A stretch of DNA of 54,757 nucleotides from a virus (taxonomy: Duplodnaviria; Caudoviricetes). The notes under the pieces are model-generated. The model saw nothing but the letters and a program-made list of their open reading frames with translations, had not been told where the DNA came from and did not search any database. Below are positions 18,690 through 41,930 of this stretch, piece after piece. A program made the position numbers and the translations under genes. Position 1 is the stretch's first letter. Each line of letters begins with the position of its first letter. The stretch lies in the IMG/VR virus record IMGVR_UViG_3300015190_000002, positions 1 through 54,757 of that record. One strand, 5' to 3'.

Positions 18690-18726
18690 AAGAGTGAGGA
18701 ATCAAAGGGGTATGGGAGGCTTACCG

Positions 18727-19653
18727 ATGAACCTCATCGAAGGTGCAGAGTTCCATCAGCGCTGCCTGGAACGGCTCAATCGTTCGGCGATGACCCTGCG
18801 TCTGTATCGCATCTATCAGGATTCGTTTCTTACCTTTCTGCTCGAGCATCAGGTTGATCCCACACTCGACGCGTTGAACCCACAATTTGTGCGTGAGTGG
18901 CAAGCCTGGCTACGGAACAAGTCAACTGGTCGCCGTGGCGGCGTCGTTACCGAGAAGCAAGGCGTCATGACGCTCAAGACGTGGGGCCGGTTTCTCTGGG
19001 AGAACGACGTATACGCCTTCGATCCGCTTGGACGTCTCAAGGTGCCGCGGGTGCAGAAAATACACCGCAAGCCGTTCACCGAGGAGGAAGCACGCCGCCT
19101 CGTTCAGGCAGTTGCCAGTGGTGTCAACCCCATTCGTGACCGAGCCATGCTGCTGCTCCTGCTGGATACCGGCTGTCGCGTGGGCGAGCTGTGTGCGGCC
19201 ACCGTTGCTGATGTCGACCTTGTAGAAGGTTCGATCACGTTCCGTCGTACCAAAAACGGGAGCCCGCGGAAGGTTACGTTCCGCGTAGCCGCCCGCCGTG
19301 ATGGCGGGCCGTCGATGTCAGCACTGCGGAACTGGCTGAAGGTTCGTGAAGCACGCTCCGGCGTCGAGGCCCTGTTCGTTACCCGCGAACGGTTGCCGCT
19401 CTCGACCAGGCGCGTACGCGAGATTTTCAAGGAGCTCGGCGAGAACGCTCGCGTGCCGAATTCTCACCCTCACCGCTGCCGCCACACCAGTGCAAGTCAG
19501 TACCTCGAACAACGACCTGGCGCAGAGCTCCAGTTGCGCTCGAGGTTGGGCCACGTCGCAAAAGACGTGTTGGCCGACTACATAACGTGGTCCGACAAAG
19601 CCCAAGCAGACGCCGCCGACCAGGCGAGCCTATCTCTGAGGTGGAACCTTTGA
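18727..19653 (+). CDS. Tyrosine recombinase/integrase (XerC/D-like)
   Basis: DRAMLLLLLDTGCRVGEL, TKNG, HRCRH, LGH...Y catalytic residues; GGAGG RBS before ATG 18727. Confidence 0.92.
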   Translation: MNLIEGAEFHQRCLERLNRSAMTLRLYRIYQDSFLTFLLEHQVDPTLDALNPQFVREWQAWLRNKSTGRRGGVVTEKQGVMTLKTWGRFLWENDVYAFDPLGRLKVPRVQKIHRKPFTEEEARRLVQAVASGVNPIRDRAMLLLLLDTGCRVGELCAATVADVDLVEGSITFRRTKNGSPRKVTFRVAARRDGGPSMSALRNWLKVREARSGVEALFVTRERLPLSTRRVREIFKELGENARVPNSHPHRCRHTSASQYLEQRPGAELQLRSRLGHVAKDVLADYITWSDKAQADAADQASLSLRWNL

Positions 19654-20627
19654 CGACCGAACTGTTGATCCCTGCTACCCTGAGCCCTTCTATGTCAAAG
19701 TCGAACGCGCGACTTCTGACCGATCAGGAGATAGCCGAGCTCGGGCCGCCTGAAGCAGTGCGGCTCCCGCTCGATCTGGTTGACCCGAACCCGCAGAACC
19801 CACGCGAAGAACTGCTCGAGGTCGACGTGCTGGCCGACAACATTCGTTCGTTCGGTCTGCTTCAGCCGGTCACGGTCAGGCGCGCTGGTGAACGATACGA
19901 GCTCATCGGCGGCCACCGTCGGCGGGCGGCGTTTACTGTGCTCCGGGAACGATTCCCTGAAGACGTCCAGTGGCGCACCATCCCCGCCGTAGTACGAACC
20001 GAGCAGGACGACGACCGCGCATTCCTGATGCTGCTGTCTTCCCAGCTCCACAGCCGCGCTTGGCGCCCACGCGAGGAAGCCGCGGCCCTGGAACGGCTCG
20101 TGATCGGCGGCCGGAACCTGCAACAGATAGGCGAAGCGCTCAATCGCAACGAGTCGTGGGCGAGCAAAAGACTAAGGGTTTACGCCGACAGCGTCCTGTC
20201 TGGCTTCGTCCAGGCCGGTCAAATTCCCGCCTCCGTTGCCGAGGAGCTGTTGGTCGTCCTCGACGTGGACACAAAACGCGACCTGGCCGAGCGAGCCGTA
20301 GCCGAAAAATGGAGTCAGGATCAGGTTCGCGGCCAGGTCCGGGCTCTGCGCCTCGACAAGCAGATTCGTGACATCGCCCGGCGCGCACGCGAACTGCTGG
20401 TCCTGCTTTCGAGCATTGACCCGAGCCGGCTCCCCGACGACGCCGCGGTCGACCTGAACCTGCTACGTCGCCGTATCGTTGCCCTGAGCCGTGCGCCGGT
20501 CATTCCGTCGATCGAGTCGGCTATGGCCGAGGCGAACGTCCGAACGCAGGAGCCCACACGCCGCAGCGGAAAGACGCGTCGACCTCGTCCAGCCGGCTAC
20601 GTGTCAGGAGTCAAGGGGCCGACGTAA
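19650..20627 (+). CDS. parB: ParB/Spo0J-like protein
   Basis: PNPQNPR, GLLQPVTVR, YELIGGHRR, downstream HTH (QQIGEALNRNESWASKRL); TTGA overlap with recombinase stop; start could be ATG 19692. Confidence 0.85.
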   Translation: MTTELLIPATLSPSMSKSNARLLTDQEIAELGPPEAVRLPLDLVDPNPQNPREELLEVDVLADNIRSFGLLQPVTVRRAGERYELIGGHRRRAAFTVLRERFPEDVQWRTIPAVVRTEQDDDRAFLMLLSSQLHSRAWRPREEAAALERLVIGGRNLQQIGEALNRNESWASKRLRVYADSVLSGFVQAGQIPASVAEELLVVLDVDTKRDLAERAVAEKWSQDQVRGQVRALRLDKQIRDIARRARELLVLLSSIDPSRLPDDAAVDLNLLRRRIVALSRAPVIPSIESAMAEANVRTQEPTRRSGKTRRPRPAGYVSGVKGPT

Positions 20628-20655: not shown

Positions 20656-20952
20656 ATGAGCCGTGCCACAGAAGTGCGGGAGCTGGGCGAGTGGAACTGG
20701 TGGTACGCCCGACCCTACAACGTCCTGCACGCCGCTACGGTCGAATACGACCCGCTGTACGACACCGCGGGCGACGGGGTTACCGCCTGCGGCTGGAGGA
20801 CCCGCCTGGCGATCCCCGGTATCTTCTCGCGCATGAGCATGCGCCGCTGCGCTCACTGCTGCCGCCGCCTCGGCTACCCGCAAGGTGTCGGGAGCCCGAA
20901 GAACGACGAGGCCTGCCGCGCCCTTGTAGAACAACGCCTTAGCCATGGGTGA
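20656..20952 (+). CDS. Small Cys/His-rich hypothetical protein
   Basis: LHA...TACG...RCAHC; follows ParB. Confidence 0.5.
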   Translation: MSRATEVRELGEWNWWYARPYNVLHAATVEYDPLYDTAGDGVTACGWRTRLAIPGIFSRMSMRRCAHCCRRLGYPQGVGSPKNDEACRALVEQRLSHG

Positions 20953-22621
20953 CACCGTTACGCTCAGCTGCCCAGCGGTCACGCGAGTTGTCGCCACGAG
21001 TCTGCGGTGTCAGATGGGTCAGGTCACTACAGTCACGGAAACACGAGTCTCGGTGCCCAAGCGTCAGTTTCTTGCCCGTCACCGGATCTCGCCCAATGTC
21101 GCCGTACGCCTGCTTCCACCGCCACCGATGCACGAGCTCTGACTTTTCGTCTTCCTCGAGATAGATGTACCCGTAGCCTTTCGCATCGTGCTTGCCCCGC
21201 CAGCGTAGACAGCCTCGCTCCCGAAATGTCTTCTCCAAGTACGTCTGCATGTTCGTACTCGGCGGCGGTAACGCGGGCAACACCTCCCTCACACGTTCAA
21301 TCGGCACCACCACTATCCGGCGTCTCCCCCCCCAGTCTCCCGGCGCGTCTCCCCTGCTCTCAATTAGATTGGTCACCCCCCGGTAGACACCATTCCTGGG
21401 CTTCGGGAACCGCACCAGCCGCCGAATCTTGCCGTGCGCTACCCAGGCCGTGAAGTCGGCCATGTTGGCCGGGTCGAGTTTCCGATAGTCCAGCCCGAGC
21501 CGGTCCGCGGCGACCCTCTGAAGACTCTTCAGCTCCTGGGCGAAGTACACCCGCGTGGCCGTGTTCGCGCTGATCGCCTCGTCCAGATCTGACTCGGCCT
21601 GCGTCAACGTGTCCACCGCGATCCTGCGGCGGCGTCCTGCGCGGAAGAACGGGTCGGCCAGGTCGATACGCTCCCCGAGCTGCCCGGCTTCCTCGAAGAT
21701 CAGGCGGAATCCTTGCGGTACCAGGCTGGCGCAGCGCTTCGCCTCAGCCAGCCCGAGCGCTACCACGTCGCCGCCTAGACTCGGGTGGTCGAAGCTGTCG
21801 TTGTCGAGCAGCACGGTCTTGCCCTGATTCAACAGGTCGGCCAGGTCGAGGCCGTCCGTGCCGATGCTCGAGCCGAACTGATCGGCCAGGTCGAGAAAGC
21901 GGCTCACCCAACCGGCGCACACTACCTTGAGCTCGCGGTCGGACTGCACCATCTCTTGCAACAGTTCGCCGATAGCCTGCAAAGAGCGTGGCTCACCCCG
22001 CGCGTCGAGGCGGCGGATCACCTCGGCCGTGGCACGTCGGGCCGCGCGCTTCCAGGCGCCAACACCACCCGAACGGAACACTTCGGTCAGTCGCTCGGCT
22101 ACCTCGGTCGGCTCCCCGAGCAGGAAGTTGAAGGGCACACGCGACACGCAGGCCGTCCAGACGACGCCACCCAAGCGCAGCACGGCATCGCGCATCGGGT
22201 CAGACACGTCGGGCGTGACGATAAGCGTGGGCCGTTCCCCGTTGACGCGCACCGTGGCGACACTGGCCGACTTGCCGCCGCCCGTGGGCCCGGACCAGAG
22301 GCAATGCGGCTTGCGCGATCGGTCGACGACCAGACCGTCGATACGCATCAGGTCATGCGGCCTGCGTACCTTCCACCAGAGCCTGCGCCAGAGCGGCGTG
22401 TTGACGGCACGCGGCACGTCGTCGTCGACAGCTCGACGGTCAACCATCACAGGTGAGCGAGTTGCCCGCCAGAACACCAGCAACGCAAATGGGACGACGA
22501 TCGCTAGCCACAACTGATCCTGAGATAATTCCCAGGGAGTTGGGTCAGGCAGGGTCGGGAGAAACGTGCGCCAGGTTGACGCACTTGCCAGGAAGCTGTC
22601 GATTCCCTCGTCCGGGATCAC
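20939..22621 (-). CDS. VirD4/TraD-like type IV coupling ATPase with C-terminal HNH (His-Me finger) domain
   Basis: N-terminal TM; Walker A GPTGGGKS; FNFL; Walker B LIFEEAG, GRRR...TQ...N; C-terminal CLRWRG..DAKGYG...VHRW.W...G...H...C..C..HL...T...N. Confidence 0.8.
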   Translation of the reverse strand: MIPDEGIDSFLASASTWRTFLPTLPDPTPWELSQDQLWLAIVVPFALLVFWRATRSPVMVDRRAVDDDVPRAVNTPLWRRLWWKVRRPHDLMRIDGLVVDRSRKPHCLWSGPTGGGKSASVATVRVNGERPTLIVTPDVSDPMRDAVLRLGGVVWTACVSRVPFNFLLGEPTEVAERLTEVFRSGGVGAWKRAARRATAEVIRRLDARGEPRSLQAIGELLQEMVQSDRELKVVCAGWVSRFLDLADQFGSSIGTDGLDLADLLNQGKTVLLDNDSFDHPSLGGDVVALGLAEAKRCASLVPQGFRLIFEEAGQLGERIDLADPFFRAGRRRRIAVDTLTQAESDLDEAISANTATRVYFAQELKSLQRVAADRLGLDYRKLDPANMADFTAWVAHGKIRRLVRFPKPRNGVYRGVTNLIESRGDAPGDWGGRRRIVVVPIERVREVLPALPPPSTNMQTYLEKTFRERGCLRWRGKHDAKGYGYIYLEEDEKSELVHRWRWKQAYGDIGRDPVTGKKLTLGHRDSCFRDCSDLTHLTPQTRGDNSRDRWAAERNGVTHG

Positions 22622-24945
22622 CGGACGAGGGAGCTGGCTAGAAGCCCAGGCGCCTCGCCGTCCAGCGCAACGTCAGGATCGTTGCCAGTACCGCCATCAA
22701 CGACGGGCCAACCGGCAGGTTGGTTAGCCAGAGCAGCAGATTCAAGCCTTCCATCAGGTAACCCCTTTCGCTCAGCATACCCCCCACCATCCGTGTGCGC
22801 CATCTCGAATTCTTCAGGGGAGTAATCAACGCGAAACGCGACCCGGTGCAGTCCAGCCACCAGCATGGCATCACCGGGTCCGAACCGTTCAATGACCGCG
22901 ATCTGCTCAGGCGTCCAGCGTAGCCGTGCCGATACGTCGCTGATCTCGGCAGGAAACTGCATTCCGTACCACTGGGAGGCGCACTGTGATTGCACCGTCT
23001 TGCCGAGCGCTGAGTCGAGCGCGTCCATCGGTCGTTGCGTCATAAAGAACGACGCTAACTTGATGTGCCGCCCGCGCCGTACGAGGTCTTCTGCTTCGTC
23101 GGCCGCCTCGGCGTCATCCTGAAACGACCACATCTCATCCAGTGCGAACGCGCGCTGCGCCTCATACTCCGCTGCGCGAGCGAACACCGCGCGCTTGAAT
23201 GCTGCCATCGCCTTGCAGCGAGCGAACTTCGAGAGCTCGGCGATGTTGAGCACGATAGCCGGCGGCAGTTTTCTATAGGGGATGTCCCGAAGCGCAACCG
23301 CCAGATCCATCTCCCACGAATCGCGGTGCAGCTTGCGAATCTCGCCACCGACATATCTAGCCCAGCGTCCGTACTCGCCGTCCTTCGATTCCTCAGCCTG
23401 GTCGACCATGAAGCATTCGCGTAGCACGCCCGCGAACAACGCCCGCGACGTCCATACCTTGACACCGAACCCTTTGCCGCCGCCGCTGGCCGCGTACACG
23501 GCCACGTTCGGATTCGGTAGCTGCGGTCGGCGAAACGGCGTCCAGGCGATGCGACGGTTGCCGTACAGCGTGCGGCCCCACGGCACGGCTCCCTGCAAGC
23601 CAAGCTCGCTGGCCGACCACGGGTAGGCGCGACTCAAGCTCGAGGTATCCAATCGGTGCGACCGCTTGAGCAGTTGGCCCCCAAGTGTCGCTGAGCACGC
23701 CAGCACGCCTTCGGTGTGCTCCCACCGCAGCGGGCCCGCCTGACCGCCGAACTCGCCGACGATCTGCTCCACTCGGCGTCGACGCATCGTGAGCTGGGGC
23801 CGAGTGCTCGCACGTACGAGGTAAAGCATCTCCACCTCGAACACACGCTCCTCATTCCGCTCGAGTGAGTTGAGCGTGTCGTCCAGTTGTTCAATAGCAA
23901 CCTTGCGCTGGCGCGTCTCGGACGTCGTCGTGAGCCGTTGTAAGCGCATCTCAAGATCGCGGCGCACCTTCAGCATGTCTAGGGGCTTGATGATCTGAAC
24001 CACGTCGACCGGTTGCGAACCGTCGTACAGCGAGGACATGAAGTCGGTGGTGACCGACGACGGCCAGCGCTGGTGAGCGATCGTGCTCATCCATTCGCCG
24101 TCTGCATGCAGACCGTCCGATTCGACTCTGATGGTGCTAGGACCGATACGCTTACCCCGTCGCGGCTTCGACGTCCAGCCAGAATGAATCGTGTCGGCCA
24201 GGTCGTCATCCTCGAGCCTGCGGCCAGGCAGGCTCGCGCGAGCCAACGCGCCGTCGATATCTTCGGCGTAGCGCGTGAGTTGGTCGTCATCGTCAGCGCT
24301 GATGCTGAGCAGTCGGCGTCGTTCGACTTCACCACCTGCCGCCGTACTGGCCCGAAGGTAGCCGGCAACGATTGACCCATTTCGGTTGGGATGCTCGCTC
24401 ATCGCTTTCAGCGTCGCGTTCAAGTCGACAGGCACGGCGCGTATCGTGGTCTGGATCGGACAGGGCAGGCCGTCGAGAAACGCCGCCCAGCGGGCGCGCT
24501 CAACGGATCGCGCTGCGTCAGATGCCATCCGCATACTTACGCTGGGCATCTCCCAGATAGCAATGCTCTTACCGTGTGCGCGCGCGATGTTGCGCTCCAC
24601 AGTCGGATGCCCAAGCAGCTCATCTATTTCCTTCGGCCCGAGCAACCGTGACGACGCACGATACTTCGCCCAGGAGATCAGGCCGTGCTCCACGGGCGGC
24701 GACAGTGGCAATGCCATAATCGCAGCGCCCACAACCGGCGCAGCCCAGGCAACGGCAGTGCTGAGCGGTAGAAACGCGGGGTCAATTGCGCTCCCGAGCG
24801 CCGGTCCTACCGCAGGCACTAGCATCCCAGCCGCGGGACCGATGAACACCCCGCTTGAGAAGAGCAGCGTCCACTGCCGAATCGTCCACGCGCCCAAGCC
24901 GTCGGCGGTGTCCAGGTGCGTCGGGACAGGGTGGCGGTCAACCAT
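22618..24945 (-). CDS. PrgI(VirB3-like)-VirB4 fusion conjugation ATPase
   Basis: N-terminal VPTHLD..D..G.WTIRQ plus 2 TMs (PrgI-like); NPN..V.AASGGGKG Walker A; FALDEMW; RRGRH....F.TQRP.D. Confidence 0.85.
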   Translation of the reverse strand: MVDRHPVPTHLDTADGLGAWTIRQWTLLFSSGVFIGPAAGMLVPAVGPALGSAIDPAFLPLSTAVAWAAPVVGAAIMALPLSPPVEHGLISWAKYRASSRLLGPKEIDELLGHPTVERNIARAHGKSIAIWEMPSVSMRMASDAARSVERARWAAFLDGLPCPIQTTIRAVPVDLNATLKAMSEHPNRNGSIVAGYLRASTAAGGEVERRRLLSISADDDDQLTRYAEDIDGALARASLPGRRLEDDDLADTIHSGWTSKPRRGKRIGPSTIRVESDGLHADGEWMSTIAHQRWPSSVTTDFMSSLYDGSQPVDVVQIIKPLDMLKVRRDLEMRLQRLTTTSETRQRKVAIEQLDDTLNSLERNEERVFEVEMLYLVRASTRPQLTMRRRRVEQIVGEFGGQAGPLRWEHTEGVLACSATLGGQLLKRSHRLDTSSLSRAYPWSASELGLQGAVPWGRTLYGNRRIAWTPFRRPQLPNPNVAVYAASGGGKGFGVKVWTSRALFAGVLRECFMVDQAEESKDGEYGRWARYVGGEIRKLHRDSWEMDLAVALRDIPYRKLPPAIVLNIAELSKFARCKAMAAFKRAVFARAAEYEAQRAFALDEMWSFQDDAEAADEAEDLVRRGRHIKLASFFMTQRPMDALDSALGKTVQSQCASQWYGMQFPAEISDVSARLRWTPEQIAVIERFGPGDAMLVAGLHRVAFRVDYSPEEFEMAHTDGGGYAERKGLPDGRLESAALANQPAGWPVVDGGTGNDPDVALDGEAPGLLASSLVR

Positions 24946-25206
24946 CTAGCCGCCCGTCGCACCGCCAAGCGCAAAGATTTTCTGGGCGCCAGACACGATC
25001 ACCTTGGCACCGCCAGAGAGCAAGAAGCCCCAGAAGATCGTCGTGAACCAGCCGCGGACGTGCTGCTGGACACCACGCCCGCCAATGTTCGTGAGAATGA
25101 TGAGCCCGGCGATCACCGTTATTAGCAGTGCTACTCCGAATACCGCACCAGCAAGATCGTTTGCCAGTGTGAGCGCCGCCGCTCCGATTGGTGCTCCAAT
25201 ACCCAT
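24946..25206 (-). CDS. Pilin-like (VirB2/TrbC-like) small membrane protein
   Basis: 86 aa, two hydrophobic helices separated by a short basic loop, immediately upstream of VirB3/4. Confidence 0.6.
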   Translation of the reverse strand: MGIGAPIGAAALTLANDLAGAVFGVALLITVIAGLIILTNIGGRGVQQHVRGWFTTIFWGFLLSGGAKVIVSGAQKIFALGGATGG

Positions 25207-25222
25207 AACCCTGATCCTCCTC

Positions 25223-26083
25223 CTAGACGAACCGTCCGCGCGCGACGCCGACTGTGGACTTGACGACTCCCATCAATCCGCCGCCCTTGATATCGGCCAG
25301 CCACGTAGCCATGTCGTAAGCCAGTAACAAGACACCTACGCCGAGTGCGATGCCTCCCCATGTTGAGCCGCTCGGCCCGGCTATAGCGGCCGCGAGCCGC
25401 AAGCAGATCACCACGAGCACCTGGCCGACCAGAAGCCCGATAAAAGTTGTCGTCCACCTCCGTGCATACGGCTGGCCGCCAGGCAACACCCAGCACATCA
25501 TCGCTAGCGGGCCGAGAATCAAGAGCACGTCCAGATACACAAGCCGATAGGCCATCCTCCAGAGAAGCCTGAAGCCGAGCACGATCCACACGATGAGCAG
25601 GACCAGGCGCGTGATCGGGTCCATGTCACCGCCAGGTACGCTCGGTAGTGGCGCGCCGATTATCGCCCCGTCAATTGTGTTGATTAGGTCGATCGAAAAG
25701 ATGTAAACGCGCGGGATGCTGAGCACCAGCAGAACCCCGAGAAACATGCGGGCGGCGTACTCGCCAGGTGCCCACGACCAGCCAAAGTATTCACGTCCGA
25801 GCGCGGCCAATCCCGCCAGCACACAACTGAGCGTGATGACACCAAACACCGCCGGCTCCCAAGATTTGTACAGGTCGGCTACGGCGCCCAGGTTGTAGGT
25901 CATCTCAGGCGGGGTACGAGTGATGAACTGGATCGGCGACGAGTTGGTGGTCGAGGCAATCGACTCCCATACGGCGTTGCTGCGGCCGGTCAGGAGCTCA
26001 GCCAGCCCGTTGAGCACGGCCGTAACAATGGGTACGACACTATCGAGCAGCCACCGCGTGAGCGCACTCGTGTCAGTGAGCAT
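25223..26083 (-). CDS. VirB6/TrbL-like polytopic conjugation membrane protein
   Basis: 5-6 TMs; R...LDVLLILGPLAMMCWVLP...ARRW...F...Q pattern typical of TrbL/VirB6. Confidence 0.8.
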   Translation of the reverse strand: MLTDTSALTRWLLDSVVPIVTAVLNGLAELLTGRSNAVWESIASTTNSSPIQFITRTPPEMTYNLGAVADLYKSWEPAVFGVITLSCVLAGLAALGREYFGWSWAPGEYAARMFLGVLLVLSIPRVYIFSIDLINTIDGAIIGAPLPSVPGGDMDPITRLVLLIVWIVLGFRLLWRMAYRLVYLDVLLILGPLAMMCWVLPGGQPYARRWTTTFIGLLVGQVLVVICLRLAAAIAGPSGSTWGGIALGVGVLLLAYDMATWLADIKGGGLMGVVKSTVGVARGRFV

Positions 26084-26781
26084 CAGCTTGGCGTTCCTGG
26101 CTTGGGTGCTGATGGCGGGGACGTGTCGGCAAAGATGGCCGCTCGCACGTTTCCACGGCTGATAGCCATGCCGTTTATCTGTCCCGCGGTCATCCAGTCG
26201 GAGCCGCCGCGGAGGTCTGTGCCGCTGGTGCCGACGCGGTACACGGGGATGCCGTTCACGTTGGTTCTCACCCCATCCACGAAGTAGTAATGGCCGGGTG
26301 TGTCGAGGATGACCGGCCGACCCGCCGCGGCCTCAGCCGTGACATTGGCCCAGTTGATCGGCTCGAGTCGGCTAGGTAGATTGAGTCTGGCGAGCAACTG
26401 CTGCTCGGCGGCTACGCCGTACATGCCCGAGTTGGCGTCCCACAGTCCGCGAGTCGCTACGCTCATGACCTGGCCGATGGACAGATCCACTCCCCACCAG
26501 CGGCCAAAAGCAATGGCGGCAGCCGGGCCGCACGCGGCATAGGCGTCAATTGGGTTGAGCCCAAGTGCGAACTGCGACGGTCGGCCACCACCAAGAGATA
26601 AGCCCGGTGCAGCCGGGATGGTGGCGACAGGGCCGATGAATGCAGAGCCACCGTCAAGTACCTGGGGCGACGCCGCAGGCGCAATGATGAGCAGCGGCAA
26701 GAGGATAGGCAGAATCGTCATGCCGGCACTGACGGCAACGACGATCACCACCATGACGATCACGATGCCGACAATTACCAT
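26083..26781 (-). CDS. Membrane-anchored C39-like cysteine peptidase (putative cell-wall hydrolase, VirB1 analogue)
   Basis: N-terminal TM; SQF...ACGPAAA catalytic Cys; GRPVIL...GHYYFVDG catalytic His. Confidence 0.7.
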   Translation of the reverse strand: MVIVGIVIVMVVIVVAVSAGMTILPILLPLLIIAPAASPQVLDGGSAFIGPVATIPAAPGLSLGGGRPSQFALGLNPIDAYAACGPAAAIAFGRWWGVDLSIGQVMSVATRGLWDANSGMYGVAAEQQLLARLNLPSRLEPINWANVTAEAAAGRPVILDTPGHYYFVDGVRTNVNGIPVYRVGTSGTDLRGGSDWMTAGQINGMAISRGNVRAAIFADTSPPSAPKPGTPS

Positions 26782-27569
26782 CAGGCGGTAGCCCCGGTCG
26801 GCTGCAAGCGGCTCGGTTCAACCGAACGAATATCGAGCATGCCGTCAGGCAATGGCGGCCCAGGCGTGGCAGGCTTCGGCGGCTTCAGAGGAACGACAGG
26901 CGCAGGCTCGGCAACAGCGACCGGCATAGCCGTCGGTGTTCGAGTCGGCATGATGGTTGGTCGCACCGTTGGCGTCGAAGTTGGCCGTACGGTCGGTGTG
27001 TTTGTCGGAGATGCTGTAGCGGTCACCGTGGGGGTAGGAAATGGCGTTGCCGTGTTGGTCGGCGCCGCGGTGGGAGCACTGGTCGGCAATTCGGGAGCAG
27101 GCATATAGATGATCTGCGGCGGCGGCGCGGGCGCCTGCTGAATGACCGTGATAATCACGGGCGTCTGAGTAGGCGCCAGAGTAGGAATCTGGGTAGGCTC
27201 AGGTGTCGGCGTCTCGGTCGGCTGCTCAATTGGACACGGCACGGGTGCGCCGTTCTCATCGAACACGATCCCGTTCTCATCGGTGAACCAGCACGGCTCG
27301 GGGATCGAGGTCGCTAGGGGGGTAGCAGCCGGTACCTCTGGAGCAGCTGTGGGGGTAACCGTCGGCGTCGGCGAGGGCGTCCATGTCGGCGTCAGCGTTG
27401 ATGTCAGCGTTGGTGTCTCGGTTGGACACTCGGGCCGTCGCTGCGCCCGGCAATTCGCTAACTCGTCGAGCGCATGCTGTGTCGCCGTCGCCGAAGCGCC
27501 TGCGGACTCGGCGCGCGCCGTACCTGGCAGGCTCAGCAGCAGTACGGCTGCACCCACCAGGAGCCGCAC
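26781..27569 (-). CDS. Secreted Pro/Thr-rich protein
   Basis: Signal peptide ending ARA; two Cys pairs; extensive TPT repeats. Confidence 0.7.
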   Translation of the reverse strand: MRLLVGAAVLLLSLPGTARAESAGASATATQHALDELANCRAQRRPECPTETPTLTSTLTPTWTPSPTPTVTPTAAPEVPAATPLATSIPEPCWFTDENGIVFDENGAPVPCPIEQPTETPTPEPTQIPTLAPTQTPVIITVIQQAPAPPPQIIYMPAPELPTSAPTAAPTNTATPFPTPTVTATASPTNTPTVRPTSTPTVRPTIMPTRTPTAMPVAVAEPAPVVPLKPPKPATPGPPLPDGMLDIRSVEPSRLQPTGATA

Positions 27570-27570
27570 G

Positions 27571-27750
27571 TCAGAACAGCGCCTCCTGTCCCACGGCTAC
27601 TTTCCGCAGCTTGCGGCTAGGCTTCGGCGGCAGGTTGGCGCCAATGATCGACGATGCGATGCGCCGCCGCAGTTCACCACGTTGACGCGCGGCCTCTTCT
27701 TGCTTGAGACGGACGACCCCTGGCGCTTCCTTGACGCGACTCGTTCTCAT
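27571..27750 (-). CDS. 59-aa basic protein, first gene of the tra operon
   Basis: Hand translation MRTSRVKEAPGVVRLKQEE...VGQEALF*; stop 1 nt before next start and contains its GGAGG; TAGTGT lies 7 nt upstream of ATG. Confidence 0.5.
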   Translation of the reverse strand: MRTSRVKEAPGVVRLKQEEAARQRGELRRRIASSIIGANLPPKPSRKLRKVAVGQEALF

Positions 27751-27837
27751 GCTGGTTACACTAAACTTACACCGTGGTTATAATCAACCGCAAGGGTGAC
27801 TATCAACACACCTTGGCGTAAACTGCGTTACATCTTG

Positions 27838-28053
27838 GTGCGCCTTACTCGTCTCAAGCGGCGACGTCTTGAGAAGGGCTGGACGCTCCGCGACTTGCGA
27901 GATGCGACCGGGTTCAGCGTCAGGACGTTGAGCCTGCTCGAGCGCGGCGAGACGGAACCTCGGCCGGCGACGATCAGCCGCCTCGCTACTGTGCTCGAGT
28001 GCCGCCCCGTCGACTTGATGGAGCCCGAGTCGCCGTCGCACTTTAGCGACTAA
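27838..28053 (+). CDS. XRE-family HTH regulator divergent from the tra operon
   Basis: LKRRRLEKGWTLRDLRDATGFSVRTLSLLERGETEPR..TISRLA. Confidence 0.85.
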   Translation: MRLTRLKRRRLEKGWTLRDLRDATGFSVRTLSLLERGETEPRPATISRLATVLECRPVDLMEPESPSHFSD

Positions 28054-28817: not shown

Positions 28818-29648
28818 TCAGGAGTGTGCGATTCCGTGCTGGTCCGCGACCGTACGGATACCGTTGACGAGGTTTCTGACTGCCGACGATGAAGCCTTCT
28901 GTTTTGCTACCGGCTTGAGCAAGTCGCCGCCGATGAAGCCGATGGCGCTGACCAACCCGTCCCGATCGGACGCGATCGCAGCGCATGGATCCGGTGTGGT
29001 CGGTGGATCTGACGGCTGGCCGAGCTCAGCGGCTTCGCCGTCTGAGAGCACGTTCAGATCAAGCCCACCAACCCCCCCGACAGACGTAGTGCCTCGAAAC
29101 TGCTTGATTCGAGCGTCCCGCCAGCCTCCGTACGGGACAAATCCTACCGCCGCGTCGGCCACCTGATCGTAGTTGGCATCCCAAAGCTCGCGGTCGGCGA
29201 AGGCGTTACTGTTGCCCATGTAGCGACGGTCAGCCCAGAACCAGCGGCCCGAGTAGATACCCGTCTTCTCGCCGCTGGTGGTGACGAACGCATCGCACTC
29301 AACGAGCGCCGCGGTCACCTTCGCCTCACACGTCGCCTGGTCGTATTTGACTGCTGCCGTGTCCTCGACATCGAGCCAGAGCTGCCGAATGGTCAGGCCA
29401 GACAGCAGGCCTAGCTTCCGTTGAGTGTCGGTGACGTCAAGGTCGAACCAGAGCCACACGTACGCGTCGACCGTCAGGCCGCCGTCCAGACACGCCTGAA
29501 TTTGATTGCGCGTCACGCCCGCCGGAAATCCCGGCGGCGGGTCGACAGCCTGGACAATGACGACCTCGACGCCCGCGGCCTTGAGTGCCTGTACTGCGTC
29601 TGGTGTGAGCGGGTCGGTAAAGTTCGAGCAGTCTACGGCAAGCGTCAC
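28818..29648 (-). CDS. GH25 muramidase endolysin
   Basis: AVDCSNF, LWLDVED (DxE), GIYSG..FW, LWDANY, IKQF, LDLN. Confidence 0.85.
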   Translation of the reverse strand: MTLAVDCSNFTDPLTPDAVQALKAAGVEVVIVQAVDPPPGFPAGVTRNQIQACLDGGLTVDAYVWLWFDLDVTDTQRKLGLLSGLTIRQLWLDVEDTAAVKYDQATCEAKVTAALVECDAFVTTSGEKTGIYSGRWFWADRRYMGNSNAFADRELWDANYDQVADAAVGFVPYGGWRDARIKQFRGTTSVGGVGGLDLNVLSDGEAAELGQPSDPPTTPDPCAAIASDRDGLVSAIGFIGGDLLKPVAKQKASSSAVRNLVNGIRTVADQHGIAHS

Positions 29649-38067: not shown

Positions 38068-40866
38068 CTAGATAGAGCTGATGGCCAACTGCGGGAAGCC
38101 GCTGTTATCGGCAGGCTGGTTCACACGCCGCGCTGAGCGATCTACAGCCGCCGCCATCTCGGCAAGGAAGGCCGCGCGTTCAGCCTCATTGCTCACGATG
38201 AGCGTACCGATCGTGATAAGCGAAGCGGTGCCGCCACCGAAGCCGCTGCCGCCGGACCCGCCACCCTGATTCGGGCTGAACGCGGTCGGCGTGAACTGCG
38301 GCCCACCGGCAGGTTGGTTGCCGCTGAACGGGTTAGCGCCACTGCCAGGCGTGAGCCAGGGCGGGAGCTGCAAGTCGCGGATCGCCTTGGCAAACCCGTT
38401 GAGAGCATCCGTGGCGTTCAAGAAGAAGCCGGTAATGGGCTGTACCCGGTCGCCAATCAGGCTCATACTCGTCGCCAGTGCTCCGAACGTCCCGCTCACG
38501 GCTTGAAGCGCTGGTTGAGTAGGCTCGATGACCAGGCCCAGGCGTTGAAAGCCTGGGATGAGCACGTTTTCGAAGAGCCCCTGGAGAGCAGTCGATTTGA
38601 GGTCGCCGAGCGCATTCATGACGTTGATGATCGCGCCGAAGAAGCCGCCGATTGACCCGAACAGTGGCCCAAGCGAAGCTACCTGTGTGCCGAAGTCGAC
38701 CAGTGATTTCGGCAGGTGTTCCCGGAAGTAGGTGAGGACGACTTGGCCGTTGCCGGTTACCAGCGCGTCCATGAGCTTGCCGAGGGTGCTGAATGCGCTC
38801 CCGACATTCGGCCCGATCGCGTCAATTACCTTCTGAAACGCGGGCTGCAATTCACTTGTCCAGATACGGGCTACCTCAGCCGACGCGGACTGGAGTAATG
38901 GCATTGCACGGCCGGCCAGGTCTTGCAGCCACGGTCCGACTGTTCCAGAGACAAATCCACCAACCCGCTCAAATGCAGGCGCGAGTTGTGTAGTCCACAA
39001 TCCGCTGAGCGTGCCCGCCGCCGACTCCAGCGCTGGTAGCGCGTTAGCGGCGAGCGATTGCATGGCCGGCATCACATCCGATGTGATGATTGCGCCGACT
39101 TCTCGAAAGGCGGGGCCGAGCTGCGTATCCCAGAACGCCTTCAATTTTGCCGCCGCCTCGATGACGGTCGGGATGGCCGTCGAGGCGAACATCTGGAATC
39201 GTGGCACCACCTCGCCGAGCAGGAACCCGCCAATTGTTCCGAGCGCTGGCACCAGTTCGCTGCTCACGAACGCGCTGAGCCTGCTGAACGCCGGCATCAC
39301 TTCCGACACCACGAAGTCGGCCACGACGCTCAGCGCCGGCCCGAGCATTTCACCCAACGACGAACCGAGACGGCTGACAGTCGGCACAATAGTCGATTCC
39401 CAGAAGTCGGCCGCAGCTTGGAATCTCGAGCCGACCTCGTCGAGCACACCTGGCAACGCCTCGAACGCCGACCCGACGATATCCTGAATCCCGCCCAGGT
39501 TCGATTGCCACGCCGCGGCGAAGACGGCCACTGCTGCGCCCACCACGAGCAGAACCGGCGCCAATGCCGCCACGACGCCTGCTAAGGCGGCAAACGCCGG
39601 CCCCACGGCTACGATGAACGGCGCAATCAGCACAAAGCCGCCGACCATAACCCCCAGGGCACTGCCGACTGCCGACAGGCCGACAAGCGCTCTAAGCACT
39701 GGCTCAGGCAATCCGCGGATCGAGTCGACGAAGCCAGAGACAACCCCGAGCGCACTCGACAACGGAGGAAGCAGGACGTTGCCGACTGCAATGCCGAGCT
39801 CCTTGATCTGATTCCCGAGCACGCCCCACTGGAAGCCCACAGTAGCCTGGATACGCGCGAAGGCGTCATCGGTAACCCCGAGCGAGTTCTGCATATCACC
39901 CAGGATCGAACGGAAGTCTTCGGCTCCACGGCCGGCCAGAATGAAGCTCGCTGCGCCACCCCGGATGTTCGGAACCAGCCTTAGCCACGTCGACGTCTGC
40001 TGATCGGCGGTCAGCCCGACACGATCCATCGCGTTCCGGGTCATGTCAAGCACGCCGGTTAGCCCGAGCGTATGCACACCTGTTGCGGTAAAGGCGTTGA
40101 CCAGATCGACGCCGCTCCGCGCGCTCAGGTCGGCAATGACTTTCTCTGCGGCCTTGCTTGGGTTGATGAGGTGCTGAATTTCGTCCTTGACCTGAACAGC
40201 AGCCGTGGCCGCGTCAAAGCCGTGGCGAGTCATAGCCGACATCGCAGCGGCGGCTTGGTCGAGCGGAATGCCAACCGCGGCGGCGAATGCGGCGACTTGA
40301 CCGAAGCTCGAACTGAATTGCTCGAGCGTCATGTTGCCTTCGGCCGAGGCGATGTGCAACTGATCCATCGTGCTCGCCGCTTCGCTGCCAGCGATGCCGA
40401 ACTCGTGCATCACCGCTGCCAACACTTCTGCCGTCGCCGAAGTGTTGCCGCCAGTCGACGTGGCCGACCGCATAGCGGCTTCGAGAATCATCGTCGCATC
40501 GGCAGCACCGAAGCCGAAGTTGCTGACGTGCATAAAGCCAGTGGCGAGGTTGTCAAGGGACACAGGCGCTTCTGCACCGAGCCGGAGCACGGTAGCTTGC
40601 ATCGCCTGCATGCCTTCATCGGTCATCGTCGTGTTATTGCGGACCTCAGTCAGCCGTGTCTGAAAGTCAGCCGCATCCGATGCAGCCGCGCCTAACGCCA
40701 GTCCCAGGCCCGCCCCGGCCGCTACTAGCAACTCGGCAGCAGGCGCAGCAGCACGAAACCCTGCCTCAGCAGCGGTCAGTGACACGCCGAGCGTCGACAG
40801 CCCGGCAATGGCAGCAGACACGTCGGCGCTCACCGACACGAACAACTCTGCAATCGGGACCGGAAT
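38068..40866 (-). CDS. Tape measure protein (start ATT 40866 or TTG 40845)
   Basis: TP901-type N-terminal core, Ala/Gly-rich amphipathic helical repeats with W/F periodicity. Confidence 0.9.
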   Translation of the reverse strand: MPVPIAELFVSVSADVSAAIAGLSTLGVSLTAAEAGFRAAAPAAELLVAAGAGLGLALGAAASDAADFQTRLTEVRNNTTMTDEGMQAMQATVLRLGAEAPVSLDNLATGFMHVSNFGFGAADATMILEAAMRSATSTGGNTSATAEVLAAVMHEFGIAGSEAASTMDQLHIASAEGNMTLEQFSSSFGQVAAFAAAVGIPLDQAAAAMSAMTRHGFDAATAAVQVKDEIQHLINPSKAAEKVIADLSARSGVDLVNAFTATGVHTLGLTGVLDMTRNAMDRVGLTADQQTSTWLRLVPNIRGGAASFILAGRGAEDFRSILGDMQNSLGVTDDAFARIQATVGFQWGVLGNQIKELGIAVGNVLLPPLSSALGVVSGFVDSIRGLPEPVLRALVGLSAVGSALGVMVGGFVLIAPFIVAVGPAFAALAGVVAALAPVLLVVGAAVAVFAAAWQSNLGGIQDIVGSAFEALPGVLDEVGSRFQAAADFWESTIVPTVSRLGSSLGEMLGPALSVVADFVVSEVMPAFSRLSAFVSSELVPALGTIGGFLLGEVVPRFQMFASTAIPTVIEAAAKLKAFWDTQLGPAFREVGAIITSDVMPAMQSLAANALPALESAAGTLSGLWTTQLAPAFERVGGFVSGTVGPWLQDLAGRAMPLLQSASAEVARIWTSELQPAFQKVIDAIGPNVGSAFSTLGKLMDALVTGNGQVVLTYFREHLPKSLVDFGTQVASLGPLFGSIGGFFGAIINVMNALGDLKSTALQGLFENVLIPGFQRLGLVIEPTQPALQAVSGTFGALATSMSLIGDRVQPITGFFLNATDALNGFAKAIRDLQLPPWLTPGSGANPFSGNQPAGGPQFTPTAFSPNQGGGSGGSGFGGGTASLITIGTLIVSNEAERAAFLAEMAAAVDRSARRVNQPADNSGFPQLAISSI

Positions 40867-40893
40867 TAGAGTGCCCTTCCGCCCCTACGTGTC

Positions 40894-41307: not shown

Positions 41308-41308
41308 G

Positions 41309-41894: not shown

Positions 41895-41930
41895 GAGCCC
41901 TCCTTCAGGGGTGATGGTGATTGCAGCGGG

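What the first reader, a model, noticed from the sequence alone, without database searches (positions are those of the whole stretch)
20939..27750. A conjugation-type (T4SS) operon embedded in a complete tailed-phage genome
Seen: a co-oriented, tightly coupled minus-strand operon encoding a 59-aa protein, a secreted PT-rich protein, a C39-like peptidase, VirB6/TrbL-like, pilin-like, PrgI-VirB4 fusion and VirD4-like ATPase. It lies between the lysis cassette and the recombinase-ParB block, with no transposase or second integrase marking it as a separate inserted ICE. Head, tail and lysis genes look intact. Established: VirB4, VirB6, VirB3/PrgI, a coupling protein and a wall hydrolase form the minimal monoderm conjugation core. 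Inference: a phage-conjugative hybrid that could spread both as virions and by cell-to-cell transfer while lysogenic.
Basis: partly seen in the sequence, partly recalled or inferred. Interest (0 to 1): 0.92.

Follow-up and report, generated by a model that had tools for sequence, protein, structure and literature searches.

The report
Tailed phage carrying a conjugation-type machine
A near-complete temperate tailed phage from soil carries an intact-looking bacterial mating-type DNA-secretion operon whose DNA pump is fused to a nuclease and which has no usual relaxase, so the phage may also spread by cell contact, though this is untested.

Summary
Window 27750..20939 (minus strand) is one tightly coupled seven-gene operon: gaps +1, -1, -1, +16, 0, -4 nt. 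It sits in an IMG/VR virus record that CheckV rates 96% complete, with TerL, portal, scaffold, major capsid and tape-measure genes and a GH25 lysin.

The 775-aa protein is a true VirB4. The 286-aa protein looks like TrbL/VirB6. The 232-aa protein looks like a C39_2-type wall peptidase. The 560-aa protein is a membrane-anchored ATPase of the TrwB/VirB4/HerA fold fused to an HNH nuclease. It links to coupling proteins only through a distant relative.

Five other near-complete IMG/VR phage genomes carry the same core, three with terminal repeats. The closest head-gene relative lacks it at the same junction. So it is a swappable phage module, not an assembly chimera and not an att-flanked ICE.

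Five relaxase families gave no match in any of the six genomes. Conjugative spread is therefore plausible but unproven, at about 0.43. SPP1-type T4SS-like cassettes of unknown role are the main rival.

This scan has noted similar phages on other DNA.

The parts
27796..28053 (+). XRE-family helix-turn-helix regulator (85 aa), transcribed divergently from the operon; candidate repressor of the module
   Evidence: PHROG transcriptional regulator/repressor families, best E 5.3e-11. Homologues sit next to the module in L002, L014 and L017.
27751..27795 (.). 45-bp divergent intergenic region holding the only sigma-70-like site of the 8-kb stretch (27755-27784, + strand, GTTACA-18-TATAAT)
   Evidence: One site was found against 1.3 expected by chance, so the position is suggestive only.
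27571..27750 (-). First gene of the operon: 59-aa basic protein (15 K+R, 5 D+E), function unknown
   Evidence: No family match in Pfam, PHROGs, NCBIfam or PADLOC.
26781..27569 (-). Secreted or surface protein, 262 aa, 40% Pro+Thr, with a hydrophobic N-terminal leader read by eye
   Evidence: Pfam PT repeat below threshold, E 0.0082. A 38%-identical homologue lies in L002.
26083..26781 (-). Membrane-anchored papain-fold cysteine peptidase of the Peptidase_C39_2 type (232 aa); candidate cell-wall hydrolase of the machine
   Evidence: Two N-terminal hydrophobic segments. ESM Atlas features 0.88 to C39_2 and 'murein hydrolase' clusters, structure TM 0.55-0.71 (a lead only). No Pfam match. Relatives carry an SLT_3 lysozyme-like protein within their module instead.
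25223..26083 (-). Polytopic TrbL/VirB6-like channel protein (286 aa, 6 hydrophobic segments)
   Evidence: Atlas features 0.91 with about 200 of 256 shared, structure TM 0.81 to a TrbL/VirB6 cluster. phrog_3750, E 1.4e-5. TrbL_4 below threshold in the L014 homologue, E 8e-4. Homologues in 4 of 5 relatives.
24946..25206 (-). 86-aa protein with two hydrophobic segments; the 'pilin-like' label is unsupported
   Evidence: 44%-identical homologue in L002. Small two-TM ORFs occupy the same position in L014, L015, L016 and L003.
22618..24945 (-). VirB4 ATPase (775 aa) with an added N-terminal two-helix membrane hairpin (VirB3-like by position only); Walker A is the unusual SGGGKG
   Evidence: NCBIfam conju_CD1110 E 3.5e-20. 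Pfam AAA_10 29.5 bits against a cut-off of 27.5. A1 profile against PDB: 4AG5 VirB4 E 2.2e-11, TrwK E 2.2e-6. AF2 model pLDDT 79.9. Full-length TrwK Z 29.3, rmsd 4.6, 590 aligned; next family HerA Z 23.6, 265 aligned. Walker A.
20939..22621 (-). Membrane-anchored coupling-type ATPase (residues about 70-415; Walker A GPTGGGKS, Walker B LIFEE) fused through a low-confidence linker to a C-terminal HNH_3 nuclease (about 456-554)
   Evidence: HNH phrog_826 E 5.3e-12. HNH_3 in 33 of 54 and AAA_10 in 15 of 54 family members. VIA Z 25.7 VirB4 CTD, 25.3 DndH, 24.8 TrwB, 23.0 HerA (a tie). hhalign 98.5% to a Chloroflexota protein that passes Pfam TrwB_AAD_bind.
18694..20627 (+). Tyrosine recombinase (18694-19653) and ParB-like protein (19587-20627), convergent with the operon; the lysogeny/maintenance neighbours
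   Evidence: Pfam Phage_integrase E 4.4e-27; ParB_N E 1.5e-11. A 76-79%-identical integrase lies near the module in L014 and L016.
28818..29648 (-). GH25 endolysin; end of the late operon upstream of the module
   Evidence: Pfam Glyco_hydro_25, E 2.1e-8.
38068..53195 (-). Virion module: TerL 51930-53195, portal 50352-51923, scaffold 48110-48865, major capsid 46599-47651, tape measure 38068-40845
   Evidence: PHROG matches: TerL phrog_2 E 4e-33, major head phrog_3990 E 2.9e-28, tape measure phrog_991 E 3.8e-48, scaffold E 1e-13, portal E 2.3e-4.

Best explanation
The operon is a compact, monoderm-style type IV secretion machine that belongs to a mosaic group of temperate tailed phages from soil.

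Shown:
- a true VirB4;
- a TrbL/VirB6-like polytopic protein;
- small membrane proteins;
- a membrane-anchored wall hydrolase, which is a C39_2-like peptidase here and an SLT_3 lysozyme-like protein in relatives;
- a Pro/Thr-rich exported protein;
- a membrane-anchored ATPase of the coupling-protein/VirB4/HerA fold fused to an HNH nuclease.

All are translationally coupled and lie in the lysogeny region, divergent from an XRE-type regulator.

Inferred: when the regulator releases the operon, the hydrolase opens the wall locally. VirB6, the small membrane proteins and the VirB4 N-terminal hairpin form the membrane channel, and VirB4 powers it. The coupling ATPase pumps DNA into the channel after its own HNH domain has nicked or cut that DNA, taking the place of the missing relaxase. 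The most likely cargo is the phage genome itself, which the recombinase would establish in the recipient. The phage would then spread by cell contact as well as by virions.
For: Component identity:
- VirB4.
- VirB6-like.
- Hydrolase.
- Coupling-type ATPase-HNH.

Signs of selection:
- Catalytic motifs are invariant across homologues. In the ATPase-HNH family these are G114/G116/K117, E310/E311, H498, H523 and H536 (54 sequences). In the VirB4 family these are K491 and D603/E604 (19 sequences).
- Gene coupling is tight.

The module is part of phage genomes:
- The VirB4 plus ATPase-HNH pair is in 5 of 5 further IMG/VR records. These records were found by searching with those same proteins, so that count is by construction.
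- A TrbL-like gene is in 4 of 5 by tblastn.
- The five records are 97-100% complete and three have terminal repeats.
- phrog_2 TerL is in 4 of 5. G001 has capsid, protease and tape-measure genes.

A wall hydrolase of a different family at the corresponding place in relatives argues that the function is required.

Not a chimera: a second assembler's contig spans 17000-32000 with no differences. That run may be the source sample, so this is not independent data.

Five relaxase families matched in 0 of 6 genomes while the controls rang, so the fused nuclease is the only DNA-cutting enzyme associated with the module.

Context: the phage is temperate, with integrase and ParB next to the module.
Against: - No transfer has been observed, and no oriT or relaxase was found.
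- An HNH nuclease makes no covalent DNA adduct. How DNA would be piloted and recircularised is therefore unknown.
- The ATPase fold does not separate a coupling protein from VirB4, DndH or HerA: Z 25.7, 25.3, 24.8 and 23.0.
- No T4CP Pfam family matches the window protein. PF10412 in the six genomes gave only two sub-threshold matches, and its controls rang in 14 of 14 genomes.
- The VirB4 Walker A reads GKG instead of GK[ST] in 19 of 19 family members, so its ATPase chemistry may be atypical.
- No VirB8-like part was identified, and the PrgI profile matched in 0 of 5 records.
- The closest head-gene relative is 100% complete by CheckV and lacks the module, so the phage type does not need it.
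- The virulent phage SPP1 has a non-essential VirB4/TrwB-like cassette of unknown role (passages read).
- Expression timing is unknown and no RNA data were available.
Confidence: 0.43

Rival explanations
1. The module is a phage life-cycle translocon, not a mating system. It would be a T4SS-like membrane machine used during infection or induction, for example to export a protein or DNA, remodel the envelope or exclude superinfecting phages. It would be analogous to the gp31.1-gp31.2-gp32 cassette of virulent phage SPP1.
For: - In SPP1, gp32 is an 836-aa ATP-binding protein whose C-terminus resembles TrwB, VirB4 and FtsK. It sits next to small membrane proteins, is non-essential and has no known function (passages of PMC6316719 read).
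- An earlier scan note reports such cassettes widely in phages of spore-formers (unchecked).
- Both window ATPases match phrog_2666, a phage protein family labelled 'terminase large subunit'.
- No relaxase or oriT was found.
- The module is dispensable for the head lineage.
Against: - The module here is much fuller than the SPP1 trio. It has two different ATPases that hhalign finds unrelated (probability 2.6%), a polytopic VirB6-like protein, a wall hydrolase and a surface protein.
- The VirB4-like protein found only one weak match among 50,697 phage records, so no sequence tie to any listed phage cassette was seen.
- It lies in the lysogeny region of a temperate phage beside the integrase, not in an early lytic operon.
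Confidence: 0.3
2. The module is a captured mating-pore module without its own DNA processing. The phage picked it up from an ICE or plasmid as cargo. It either provides a pore that other elements (or a host-encoded relaxase) use, or it is on its way to decay.
For: - A distant version of the module lies on a Chloroflexota MAG contig, next to a Toprim primase and ParB. It comprises VirB4 at 30% identity, a TrbL-like protein, an SLT_3 hydrolase, and a 1113-aa protein with TrwB_AAD_bind, HNH_3 and HTH domains.
- The module is accessory and mosaic among phages.
- No relaxase was found.
Against: - All ORFs are open and the catalytic residues are invariant across 19 and 54 homologues.
- The ATPase-HNH gene is 49-63% identical in four phage genomes that share few other genes with the window. 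That is not the pattern of decay.
- I did not test whether the Chloroflexota contig is an ICE or a prophage.
Confidence: 0.15
3. The 560-aa ATPase-HNH protein is a defence or nuclease-motor system of the HerA/DndH kind that merely sits next to T4SS genes.
For: The fold matches DndH C-domain (Z 25.3) and HerA (Z 23.0) about as well as TrwB. There is a weak PADLOC mad8 match, E 0.0079 for the window protein and 3e-9 for the Chloroflexota relative.
Against: - It is translationally coupled to virB4 by a 4-nt overlap.
- It follows a VirB4-like gene in 5 of 5 relatives and in the Chloroflexota locus.
- It has an N-terminal membrane anchor.
- The relative passes the Pfam coupling-protein family.
- The other six operon proteins have no PADLOC match.
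Confidence: 0.06
4. The finding is an artefact: a chimeric assembly of a phage with an ICE, or an ICE inserted independently into a prophage.
For: The record is a metagenome contig with 'linear' ends. Real read coverage could not be examined, because only contigs of the probable source run were available.
Against: - Six near-complete virus records from different IMG/VR data sets carry the module, three with terminal repeats.
- GC content is even across the junctions.
- A second assembler's contig bridges both edges.
- There are no flanking att-like repeats.
- The window has a single tyrosine recombinase gene among the proteins scanned.
Confidence: 0.03

Closest known systems
Minimal conjugative T4SS of monoderm bacteria (MPF-FA/FATA style, e.g. 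ICEBs1, Tn916/CTn-type elements with CD1110-family VirB4; names recalled except the CD1110 family, which is)
   Same: It has VirB4, a TrbL/VirB6-like polytopic protein, small membrane proteins, a membrane-anchored wall hydrolase and a membrane-anchored coupling-type ATPase in one operon. A phage-like XRE regulator sits divergently beside it. The best sequence match of the VirB4 is the CD1110 family.
   Different: It lies inside a tailed-phage genome. Five relaxase families gave no match. The coupling ATPase carries an HNH nuclease. No VirB8-like part was recognised. The VirB4 Walker A is GKG. All NCBIfam scores are far below the family cut-offs.
TrwB/VirD4-type coupling proteins (PDB 1E9R and related entries)
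   Same: It has an N-terminal membrane anchor and a RecA-like nucleotide-binding domain with a helical insertion. VIA gives Z 24.8, rmsd 3.7, 337 aligned of 420. The gene lies directly after virB4.
   Different: It has a C-terminal HNH_3 nuclease and no direct Pfam T4CP match. The fold score ties with VirB4 CTD, DndH and HerA.
SPP1 gp31.1-gp31.2-gp32 cassette (PMC6316719)
   Same: Both are tailed phages encoding a VirB4/TrwB-like ATPase next to small membrane proteins, with the function unproven.
   Different: SPP1 is virulent and its cassette is early, with one ATPase and no VirB6-like protein, hydrolase or nuclease fusion reported in the passages read. No BLAST-level similarity to any listed phage was seen beyond one weak hit.
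Phage-plasmids, and phage-ICE tandems (PMC12282955; PMC13651849)
   Same: These are mobile elements that mix phage and plasmid or ICE functions. ParB and a recombinase are present here.
   Different: [quoted passage not shown] Phage-ICE tandems are two elements joined by site-specific accretion (abstract only). Here a single element holds the T4SS genes, with no second integrase.
Streptomyces plasmid-phage pZL12, and streptococcal 'conjugative prophage' Phi1207.3
   Same: Both are reported to be phage-like elements that also transfer by mating.
   Different: pZL12 transfer needs a major tra gene and adjacent genes; that it is the Streptomyces FtsK-like kind is my inference (citing paper only; the primary paper was not read). 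The Phi1207.3 paper contains no occurrence of 'type IV', 'relaxase' or 'FtsK' and calls the mechanism unknown.

Membership tests
VirB4 (T4SS assembly ATPase) | Sequence-profile homology to VirB4 families | tested here: met
   NCBIfam conju_CD1110 E 3.5e-20, but 71.9 bits against an equivalog cut-off of 325; VirB4_plasma E 3.2e-11. Pfam AAA_10 29.5 bits against 27.5. A1 profile against PDB VirB4 4AG5 E 2.2e-11 and TrwK E 2.2e-6. This makes it a distant member, not an equivalog of any curated subfamily.
VirB4 (T4SS assembly ATPase) | Two-domain architecture (VirB4 N-terminal domain plus RecA-like C-terminal domain) | tested here: met
   The AF2 model (pLDDT 79.9) aligns to full-length TrwK 7O42_A with Z 29.3, rmsd 4.6 and 590 residues (model 106-720). 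The next family, HerA, aligns about 265 residues at Z 23.6.
VirB4 (T4SS assembly ATPase) | Canonical Walker A GxxxxGK[S/T] and Walker B | tested here: inconclusive
   Walker B (D603/E604) is invariant. Walker A reads SG[GAS]GKG, with Gly where Ser/Thr is expected, in 19 of 19 homologues and in L002, L003 and L009. The second VirB4 type, in L014-L017, has GKS.
VirB3/PrgI fused to VirB4 | Profile match to PrgI/VirB3 in the N-terminal membrane hairpin | tested here: inconclusive
   There are two hydrophobic segments at 27-45 and 58-76. PF12666 gave no match in 0 of 5 records at E<=1. Relatives L014 and L016 have a shorter VirB4 (552-553 aa) preceded by a separate 146-159-aa membrane protein, but BLASTP similarity is not significant (E 0.10 and 1.0).
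Type IV coupling protein (VirD4/TrwB/TraG) | N-terminal membrane anchor plus TrwB-type nucleotide-binding domain | tested here: met
   One hydrophobic segment at 32-50. TrwB 1E9R_A Z 24.8, rmsd 3.7, 337 aligned. The fold alone does not discriminate: VirB4 CTD Z 25.7, DndH Z 25.3, HerA Z 23.0.
Type IV coupling protein (VirD4/TrwB/TraG) | Match to a curated T4CP family (PF10412, PF12696, PF02534) | tested here: inconclusive
   The window protein has none, and none of the 54 family members has one at E<=0.01. PF10412 gave sub-threshold matches inside the homologous ORFs of G005 (E 0.0025) and G001 (E 0.013), with controls ringing in 14 of 14 genomes. Indirect link: hhalign 98.5%, E 1.5e-15, over 414 columns to the L003 1113-aa protein. 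That protein passes PF10412 at 24.1 bits against 20.5.
TrbL/VirB6 | Polytopic membrane protein with a TrbL-family profile or fold | tested here: inconclusive
   Six hydrophobic segments. No Pfam match for the window protein. TrbL_4 E 8e-4, below cut-off, for the L014 homologue. Atlas features 0.91 with about 200 of 256 shared, and TM 0.81 to a TrbL/VirB6 cluster. This counts as one source of evidence, and both sides are predicted models.
Self-transmissible conjugative system (VirB4 + T4CP + relaxase, CONJscan logic, recalled) | A relaxase gene | tested here: not met
   Six-frame searches with PF03432, PF02486, PF08751, PF03389 and PF01076 gave 0 of 1 for the window at E<=0.1. The same families gave 0 of 6 phage genomes at E<=0.01, with each control ringing. 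Other relaxase families (MOBH, MOBC, TcpM/MpsA-like) were not searched, and CONJscan itself was not run.
Self-transmissible conjugative system (VirB4 + T4CP + relaxase, CONJscan logic, recalled) | An origin of transfer | not tested
   No oriT search was possible, and no conserved non-coding element was sought across relatives.
Tailed phage (Caudoviricetes) | TerL, portal, HK97-type capsid, tape measure and lysis genes in one replicon | tested here: met
   CheckV completeness 96%. All 7 GenBank phage matches to the capsid protein are actinobacteriophages.
SPP1 gp32-type phage cassette | Sequence relatedness of the ATPase to phage gp32-like proteins | tested here: not met
   tblastn of the 775-aa protein against 50,697 phage records gave 1 record, at 21.5% identity and E 6e-4, in an unannotated 7.7-kb record. 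The 560-aa protein gave no match.

The most novel reading that the evidence does not exclude
A lineage of temperate tailed phages runs relaxase-free conjugation. A coupling ATPase with a tethered HNH nickase both cuts the phage DNA and pumps it through a phage-encoded VirB4/VirB6 channel. One genome would then transmit both as virions and by cell contact. A 2025 review says this combination has not been found in any prophage or phage-plasmid.
Probability: 0.35. Interest if true: 0.92.

Novelty: new variant of a known kind. Interest (0 to 1): 0.78.

Why it matters
Phages and conjugative elements are treated as two separate routes of gene flow, with different host ranges, costs and defences. A phage with its own mating channel would blur that line in several ways:
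- it could reach cells that lack its receptor;
- it could spread without killing the donor;
- it could escape defences aimed at injected DNA.

A coupling ATPase with its own nuclease would also be a new way to start DNA transfer without a relaxase. That bears on how relaxase-less islands move.

The family is compact and testable. Only 49 representatives at 50% identity score E<=1e-30, and some of those are HNH-only matches. More than 100 clusters at 90% identity are known, many on contigs of 45-78 kb.

Even if the module serves another purpose, it would help explain the long-unexplained T4SS-like cassettes of model phages such as SPP1.

Tried and rejected
Searches and tests that led nowhere:
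- Single-protein scan of IMG/VR with the VirB4-like protein: no match. The alignment-based scan worked.
- The window's TerL and capsid proteins were not found in G001 or in the Chloroflexota MAG, so head modules differ between carriers.
- GenBank phages and PLSDB plasmids: no match for the 560-aa protein, and one weak match for VirB4.
- Host assignment failed. Among 401 Chloroflexota species genomes, only HNH-domain matches appeared, in 15 genomes. Cluster look-up gave no names. The only hints are that all 7 capsid matches are actinobacteriophages, that a Chloroflexota-rich TrbL cluster is the nearest structure, and that a distant module lies in a Chloroflexota MAG.
- No tRNA genes were found.
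- PrgI profile: no match in 0 of 5 records. N-terminal BLASTP comparisons were not significant.
- A2 profile against PDB: nothing below E 0.25.
- PADLOC: only a weak mad8 match.
- Promoter and terminator scan: counts were at chance level.
- Read-level coverage could not be examined. Only Logan contigs were available, and the one holder may be the source sample. No RNA holder was listed.
- The 21-nt 'joint' 20019/27933 in run X2 has a 21-nt side and 40 foreign letters between its two sides. I treat it as a chance match from another organism.
- The six-base identity of the contig ends is too short to show circularity.

Literature:
- Seven full-text searches found no paper describing a tailed phage with its own VirB4/VirB6/T4CP set.
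Supplementary Table 3 of preprint 10.64898/2025.12.20.690322 lists vOTUs with T4SS and relaxase hallmarks and may bear on novelty; I could not see it (passages only).

Full report
WHAT IS THERE

The window is a single IMG/VR virus record of 54,757 bp. Its ends are classed as linear, and CheckV rates it 96% complete. GC content is even at about 0.58-0.66 throughout, with no step at the edges of the reported region.

On the minus strand, seven ORFs run from 27750 down to 20939, exactly as reported. The gaps between successive genes are +1, -1, -1, +16, 0 and -4 nt, so this is one translationally coupled operon.

An 85-aa XRE-type helix-turn-helix gene (27796-28053) is transcribed divergently across a 45-bp spacer. 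That spacer holds the only sigma-70-like site of the 8-kb stretch. One site is also what chance would give.

Beyond the operon's 3' end lie a ParB-like gene and a tyrosine recombinase, convergent with it. Upstream lie small membrane proteins and a GH25 lysin.

The rest of the record carries:
- TerL, portal, scaffold, major capsid and tape measure;
- a primase-polymerase/helicase, a PD-(D/E)XK nuclease and a DNA methylase.

So this is a temperate tailed phage.

WHAT THE SEVEN PROTEINS ARE

The 775-aa protein is a VirB4.
- It matches the CD1110 family of VirB4-like conjugal ATPases at E 3.5e-20. The score of 71.9 bits is far below the family cut-off of 325.
- It passes Pfam AAA_10.
- A profile of its 19 homologues finds the VirB4 of Thermoanaerobacter (4AG5, E 2.2e-11) and TrwK (E 2.2e-6) in the PDB.
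- Its AlphaFold model (pLDDT 79.9) aligns to full-length TrwK over 590 residues: Z 29.3, rmsd 4.6, model residues 106-720. This covers both the N- and C-terminal domains. The next family, HerA, aligns only about 265 residues at Z 23.6.
- In front of the VirB4 body sit two hydrophobic helices.
- The 'PrgI fusion' label is plausible by position. Relatives L014 and L016 have a 552-553-aa VirB4 preceded by a separate 146-159-aa membrane protein. But neither the PrgI profile (0 of 5 records) nor BLASTP supports it.
- One oddity: the Walker A reads SGGGKG, with Gly where Ser/Thr is expected. This holds in all 19 homologues.

The 286-aa protein has six hydrophobic segments.
- It is nearest to TrbL/VirB6 clusters in the ESM Atlas: features 0.91, structure TM 0.81.
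- A homologue in L014 has a sub-threshold TrbL_4 match.

The 232-aa protein is membrane-anchored.
- It is nearest to Peptidase_C39_2 and 'murein hydrolase' clusters: features 0.88, TM 0.55-0.71.
- By the tool's own standards this is a lead only.

The 262-aa protein is 40% Pro+Thr; I read a hydrophobic leader at its N-terminus by eye from the translation.

The 86-aa protein has two hydrophobic segments, and the 59-aa protein is basic. None of these three has a family match.

The 560-aa protein needs more care.
- It has one N-terminal hydrophobic segment, Walker A GPTGGGKS and Walker B LIFEE.
- It also has a C-terminal HNH nuclease: phrog_826 E 5.3e-12. HNH_3 is present in 33 of 54 family members.
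- Its model (pLDDT 85) matches several folds about equally: VirB4 C-domain (Z 25.7), DndH (Z 25.3), TrwB (Z 24.8, 337 aligned) and HerA (Z 23.0).
- The fold therefore says 'FtsK-HerA superfamily, TrwB/VirB4 branch' and no more.
- It is not a second VirB4: hhalign of the two families gives 2.6% probability.
- The link to coupling proteins is indirect. The family profile aligns over 414 columns (98.5%, E 1.5e-15) with a 1113-aa protein that follows a VirB4 gene, with one 179-aa ORF between them, on a Chloroflexota MAG contig. That protein passes Pfam TrwB_AAD_bind and also has HNH_3 and an HTH.
- I therefore call the 560-aa protein a coupling-type ATPase-HNH fusion with moderate confidence.

IS IT REALLY PART OF A PHAGE?

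Alignment-based scans of IMG/VR found five more records with a VirB4-like gene followed by the ATPase-HNH gene:
- G001: 59,165 bp, with a 127-bp terminal repeat that I confirmed;
- G003: 61,298 bp, terminal repeats;
- G004: 77,982 bp;
- G005: 58,419 bp;
- G006: 64,960 bp, terminal repeats.

All five are 97-100% complete by CheckV. The count of five out of five is by construction, because these records were found with those same proteins.

What is not by construction:
- A TrbL-like gene is present in 4 of 5 by tblastn. A fragment of one also lies at the start of the G004 locus L015.
- An XRE regulator and an integrase usually sit beside the module.
- phrog_2 TerL is found in 4 of 5.
- Capsid, protease and tape-measure genes are present in G001.
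- Tail genes are shared with G001, G003 and G004, and replication genes with G003 and G006. Head genes are not shared.

The module is itself mosaic.
- The window's ATPase-HNH and integrase are closest to G003 and G005: 63% and 49% for the ATPase-HNH, 79% and 76% for the integrase.
- Its VirB4 and TrbL-like proteins are closest to G001, at 49% and 48%.

In G004, G005 and the Chloroflexota locus, the wall hydrolase inside the module is an SLT_3 lysozyme-like protein rather than a C39-like peptidase. A change of enzyme family with the function kept is what one expects of a working envelope-spanning machine.

The closest relative by head genes is G407: capsid 91%, portal 79%, ParB 58%, 100% complete, 49,405 bp.
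- It has no VirB4, TrbL-like or ATPase-HNH gene.
- Only about 1.9 kb of small ORFs lie between ParB and the holin-like gene, where the window has 7.5 kb.

So the module is an accessory cassette at the ParB-lysis junction.

It is not an assembly error. A contig made by a different assembler bridges 17000-32000 without a difference, although that run may be the source sample. It is also not an att-flanked insert.

WHAT IS MISSING

Six-frame searches used the Relaxase, Rep_trans, TrwC, MobA_MobL and Mob_Pre families.
- They found nothing in the window.
- They found nothing in any of the six genomes.
- The control genomes rang each time.

Other relaxase types, including recombinase-like ones, were not searched. 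No VirB8-like protein and no oriT were identified.

HOW IT MOST LIKELY WORKS

The parts list is that of a small monoderm T4SS: channel, energiser, wall hydrolase, surface protein and substrate motor. It lies in the lysogeny region of a temperate phage, under a divergent XRE regulator.

The only nuclease tied to the module is the HNH domain on the motor. Its catalytic His and the ATPase motifs are invariant in 54 homologues.

My best reading, at about 0.43, is contact-dependent DNA transfer in which the motor's own HNH domain prepares the DNA. The phage genome is the likeliest cargo.

What is shown and what is not:
- Shown: the genes, their homology, their conservation and their residence in phage genomes.
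- Inferred: expression, assembly, cargo, nicking and establishment in a recipient.

RIVALS

The strongest rival, at 0.30, is a non-conjugative phage translocon.
- The virulent phage SPP1 has a non-essential early cassette of two small membrane proteins and an 836-aa protein (gp32).
- HHpred relates the gp32 C-terminus to TrwB, VirB4 and FtsK.
- Its role is unknown (passages read).

The other rivals are:
- a captured pore module without its own DNA processing (0.15);
- a HerA/DndH-like defence motor (0.06; weak PADLOC mad8 match);
- an artefact (0.03).

COMPARISON WITH WHAT IS KNOWN, AND NOVELTY

Related cases in print:
- Phage-ICE tandems are two joined elements (PMC13651849; abstract in search listing).
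- Phi1207.3 is called a 'conjugative prophage' on operational grounds. Its paper never mentions 'type IV', 'relaxase' or 'FtsK'.
- A citing paper lists pZL12 among Streptomyces theta-type plasmids whose transfer needs a major tra gene and adjacent genes (the primary paper was not read).
- A 2026 preprint mentions 'conjugative phage-plasmids' and vOTUs with T4SS hallmarks, but only in a supplementary table that I could not open.

Seven full-text searches found no description of a tailed phage with its own VirB4, VirB6 and coupling ATPase.

This scan has, however, already noted similar phages on other DNA, including the same ATPase-HNH fusion. Those are unchecked AI notes and I do not count them as support.

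I rate the finding a new variant of a known kind. The parts are known, but three things are new: their residence in tailed phages, the nuclease-bearing motor, and the absence of a relaxase.

HOST

The host is unresolved. The source is a soil metagenome. The hints conflict:
- all 7 capsid matches among GenBank phages are actinobacteriophages;
- a Chloroflexota-rich TrbL cluster is the nearest structure;
- a distant copy of the module lies in a Chloroflexota MAG;
- none of 401 Chloroflexota species genomes has a full-length member of the ATPase-HNH family.

Noticed in passing
window 16134-16697 (-): A 187-aa protein with an SLT lytic-transglycosylase domain (25.0 bits against a cut-off of 21.3) lies in the early region, 4 kb from the operon. 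A 44%-identical homologue is in L002. It could be a second wall hydrolase for the machine or an unrelated phage enzyme.
   Followed up: partly
window 22618-24945 (-), residues 486-492; also L002, L003, L009: The VirB4 Walker A is SG[GAS]GKG, with Gly in place of the usual Ser/Thr. This is invariant in 19 of 19 homologues. The second VirB4 type, in L014-L017, has the canonical GKS.
   Followed up: partly
L014 7767-9869; L016 7857-9995; window 22618-24945: VirB4 appears in fused and split forms. It is 775-792 aa with an N-terminal membrane hairpin in the window and L002. In L014 and L016 it is 552-553 aa, preceded by a separate 146-159-aa membrane protein.
   Followed up: partly
window 20939-24945 compared with G001, G003 and G005: There is mosaicism inside the module. 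The ATPase-HNH gene and the integrase are nearest to G003 and G005. VirB4 and the TrbL-like gene are nearest to G001. This implies a recombination point between virB4 and the motor gene.
   Followed up: no
L003 12744-16085 (+) (Chloroflexota MAG contig JAFAOS010000392.1): A 1113-aa protein combines a TrwB_AAD_bind coupling-protein domain, HNH_3 and an HTH. It follows VirB4, TrbL-like and SLT_3 genes. The same MAG has a second large HNH-bearing ORF of 965 aa. Whether this contig is an ICE or a prophage was not tested.
   Followed up: partly
window 1-1763 and 53970-54757 (-): A repeat-rich ORF runs off both contig ends, and both pieces match the same repeat gene in L002. The ends share only 6 bases. 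The assembly probably broke inside this repeat gene, which fits a nearly complete and possibly circular or permuted genome.
   Followed up: partly
G001:C1:37751-39151 (+): The TerL-family match in this DTR-bounded relative is reported with 2 TGA stops inside. This could mean a split or frameshifted terminase, or a gene-boundary effect.
   Followed up: no
window 11054-12943 (-): The replication protein is an NrS-1-type primase-polymerase fused to an AAA_25 helicase-like domain, with a MarR-like tail below threshold. Its nearest phage homologues are in Listeria phages and NrS-1, at about 30% identity.
   Followed up: no
window 20491-20952 (+): A 153-aa Cys/His-rich ORF with no family match overlaps the end of ParB and abuts the 3' end of the ATPase-HNH gene.
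   Followed up: no
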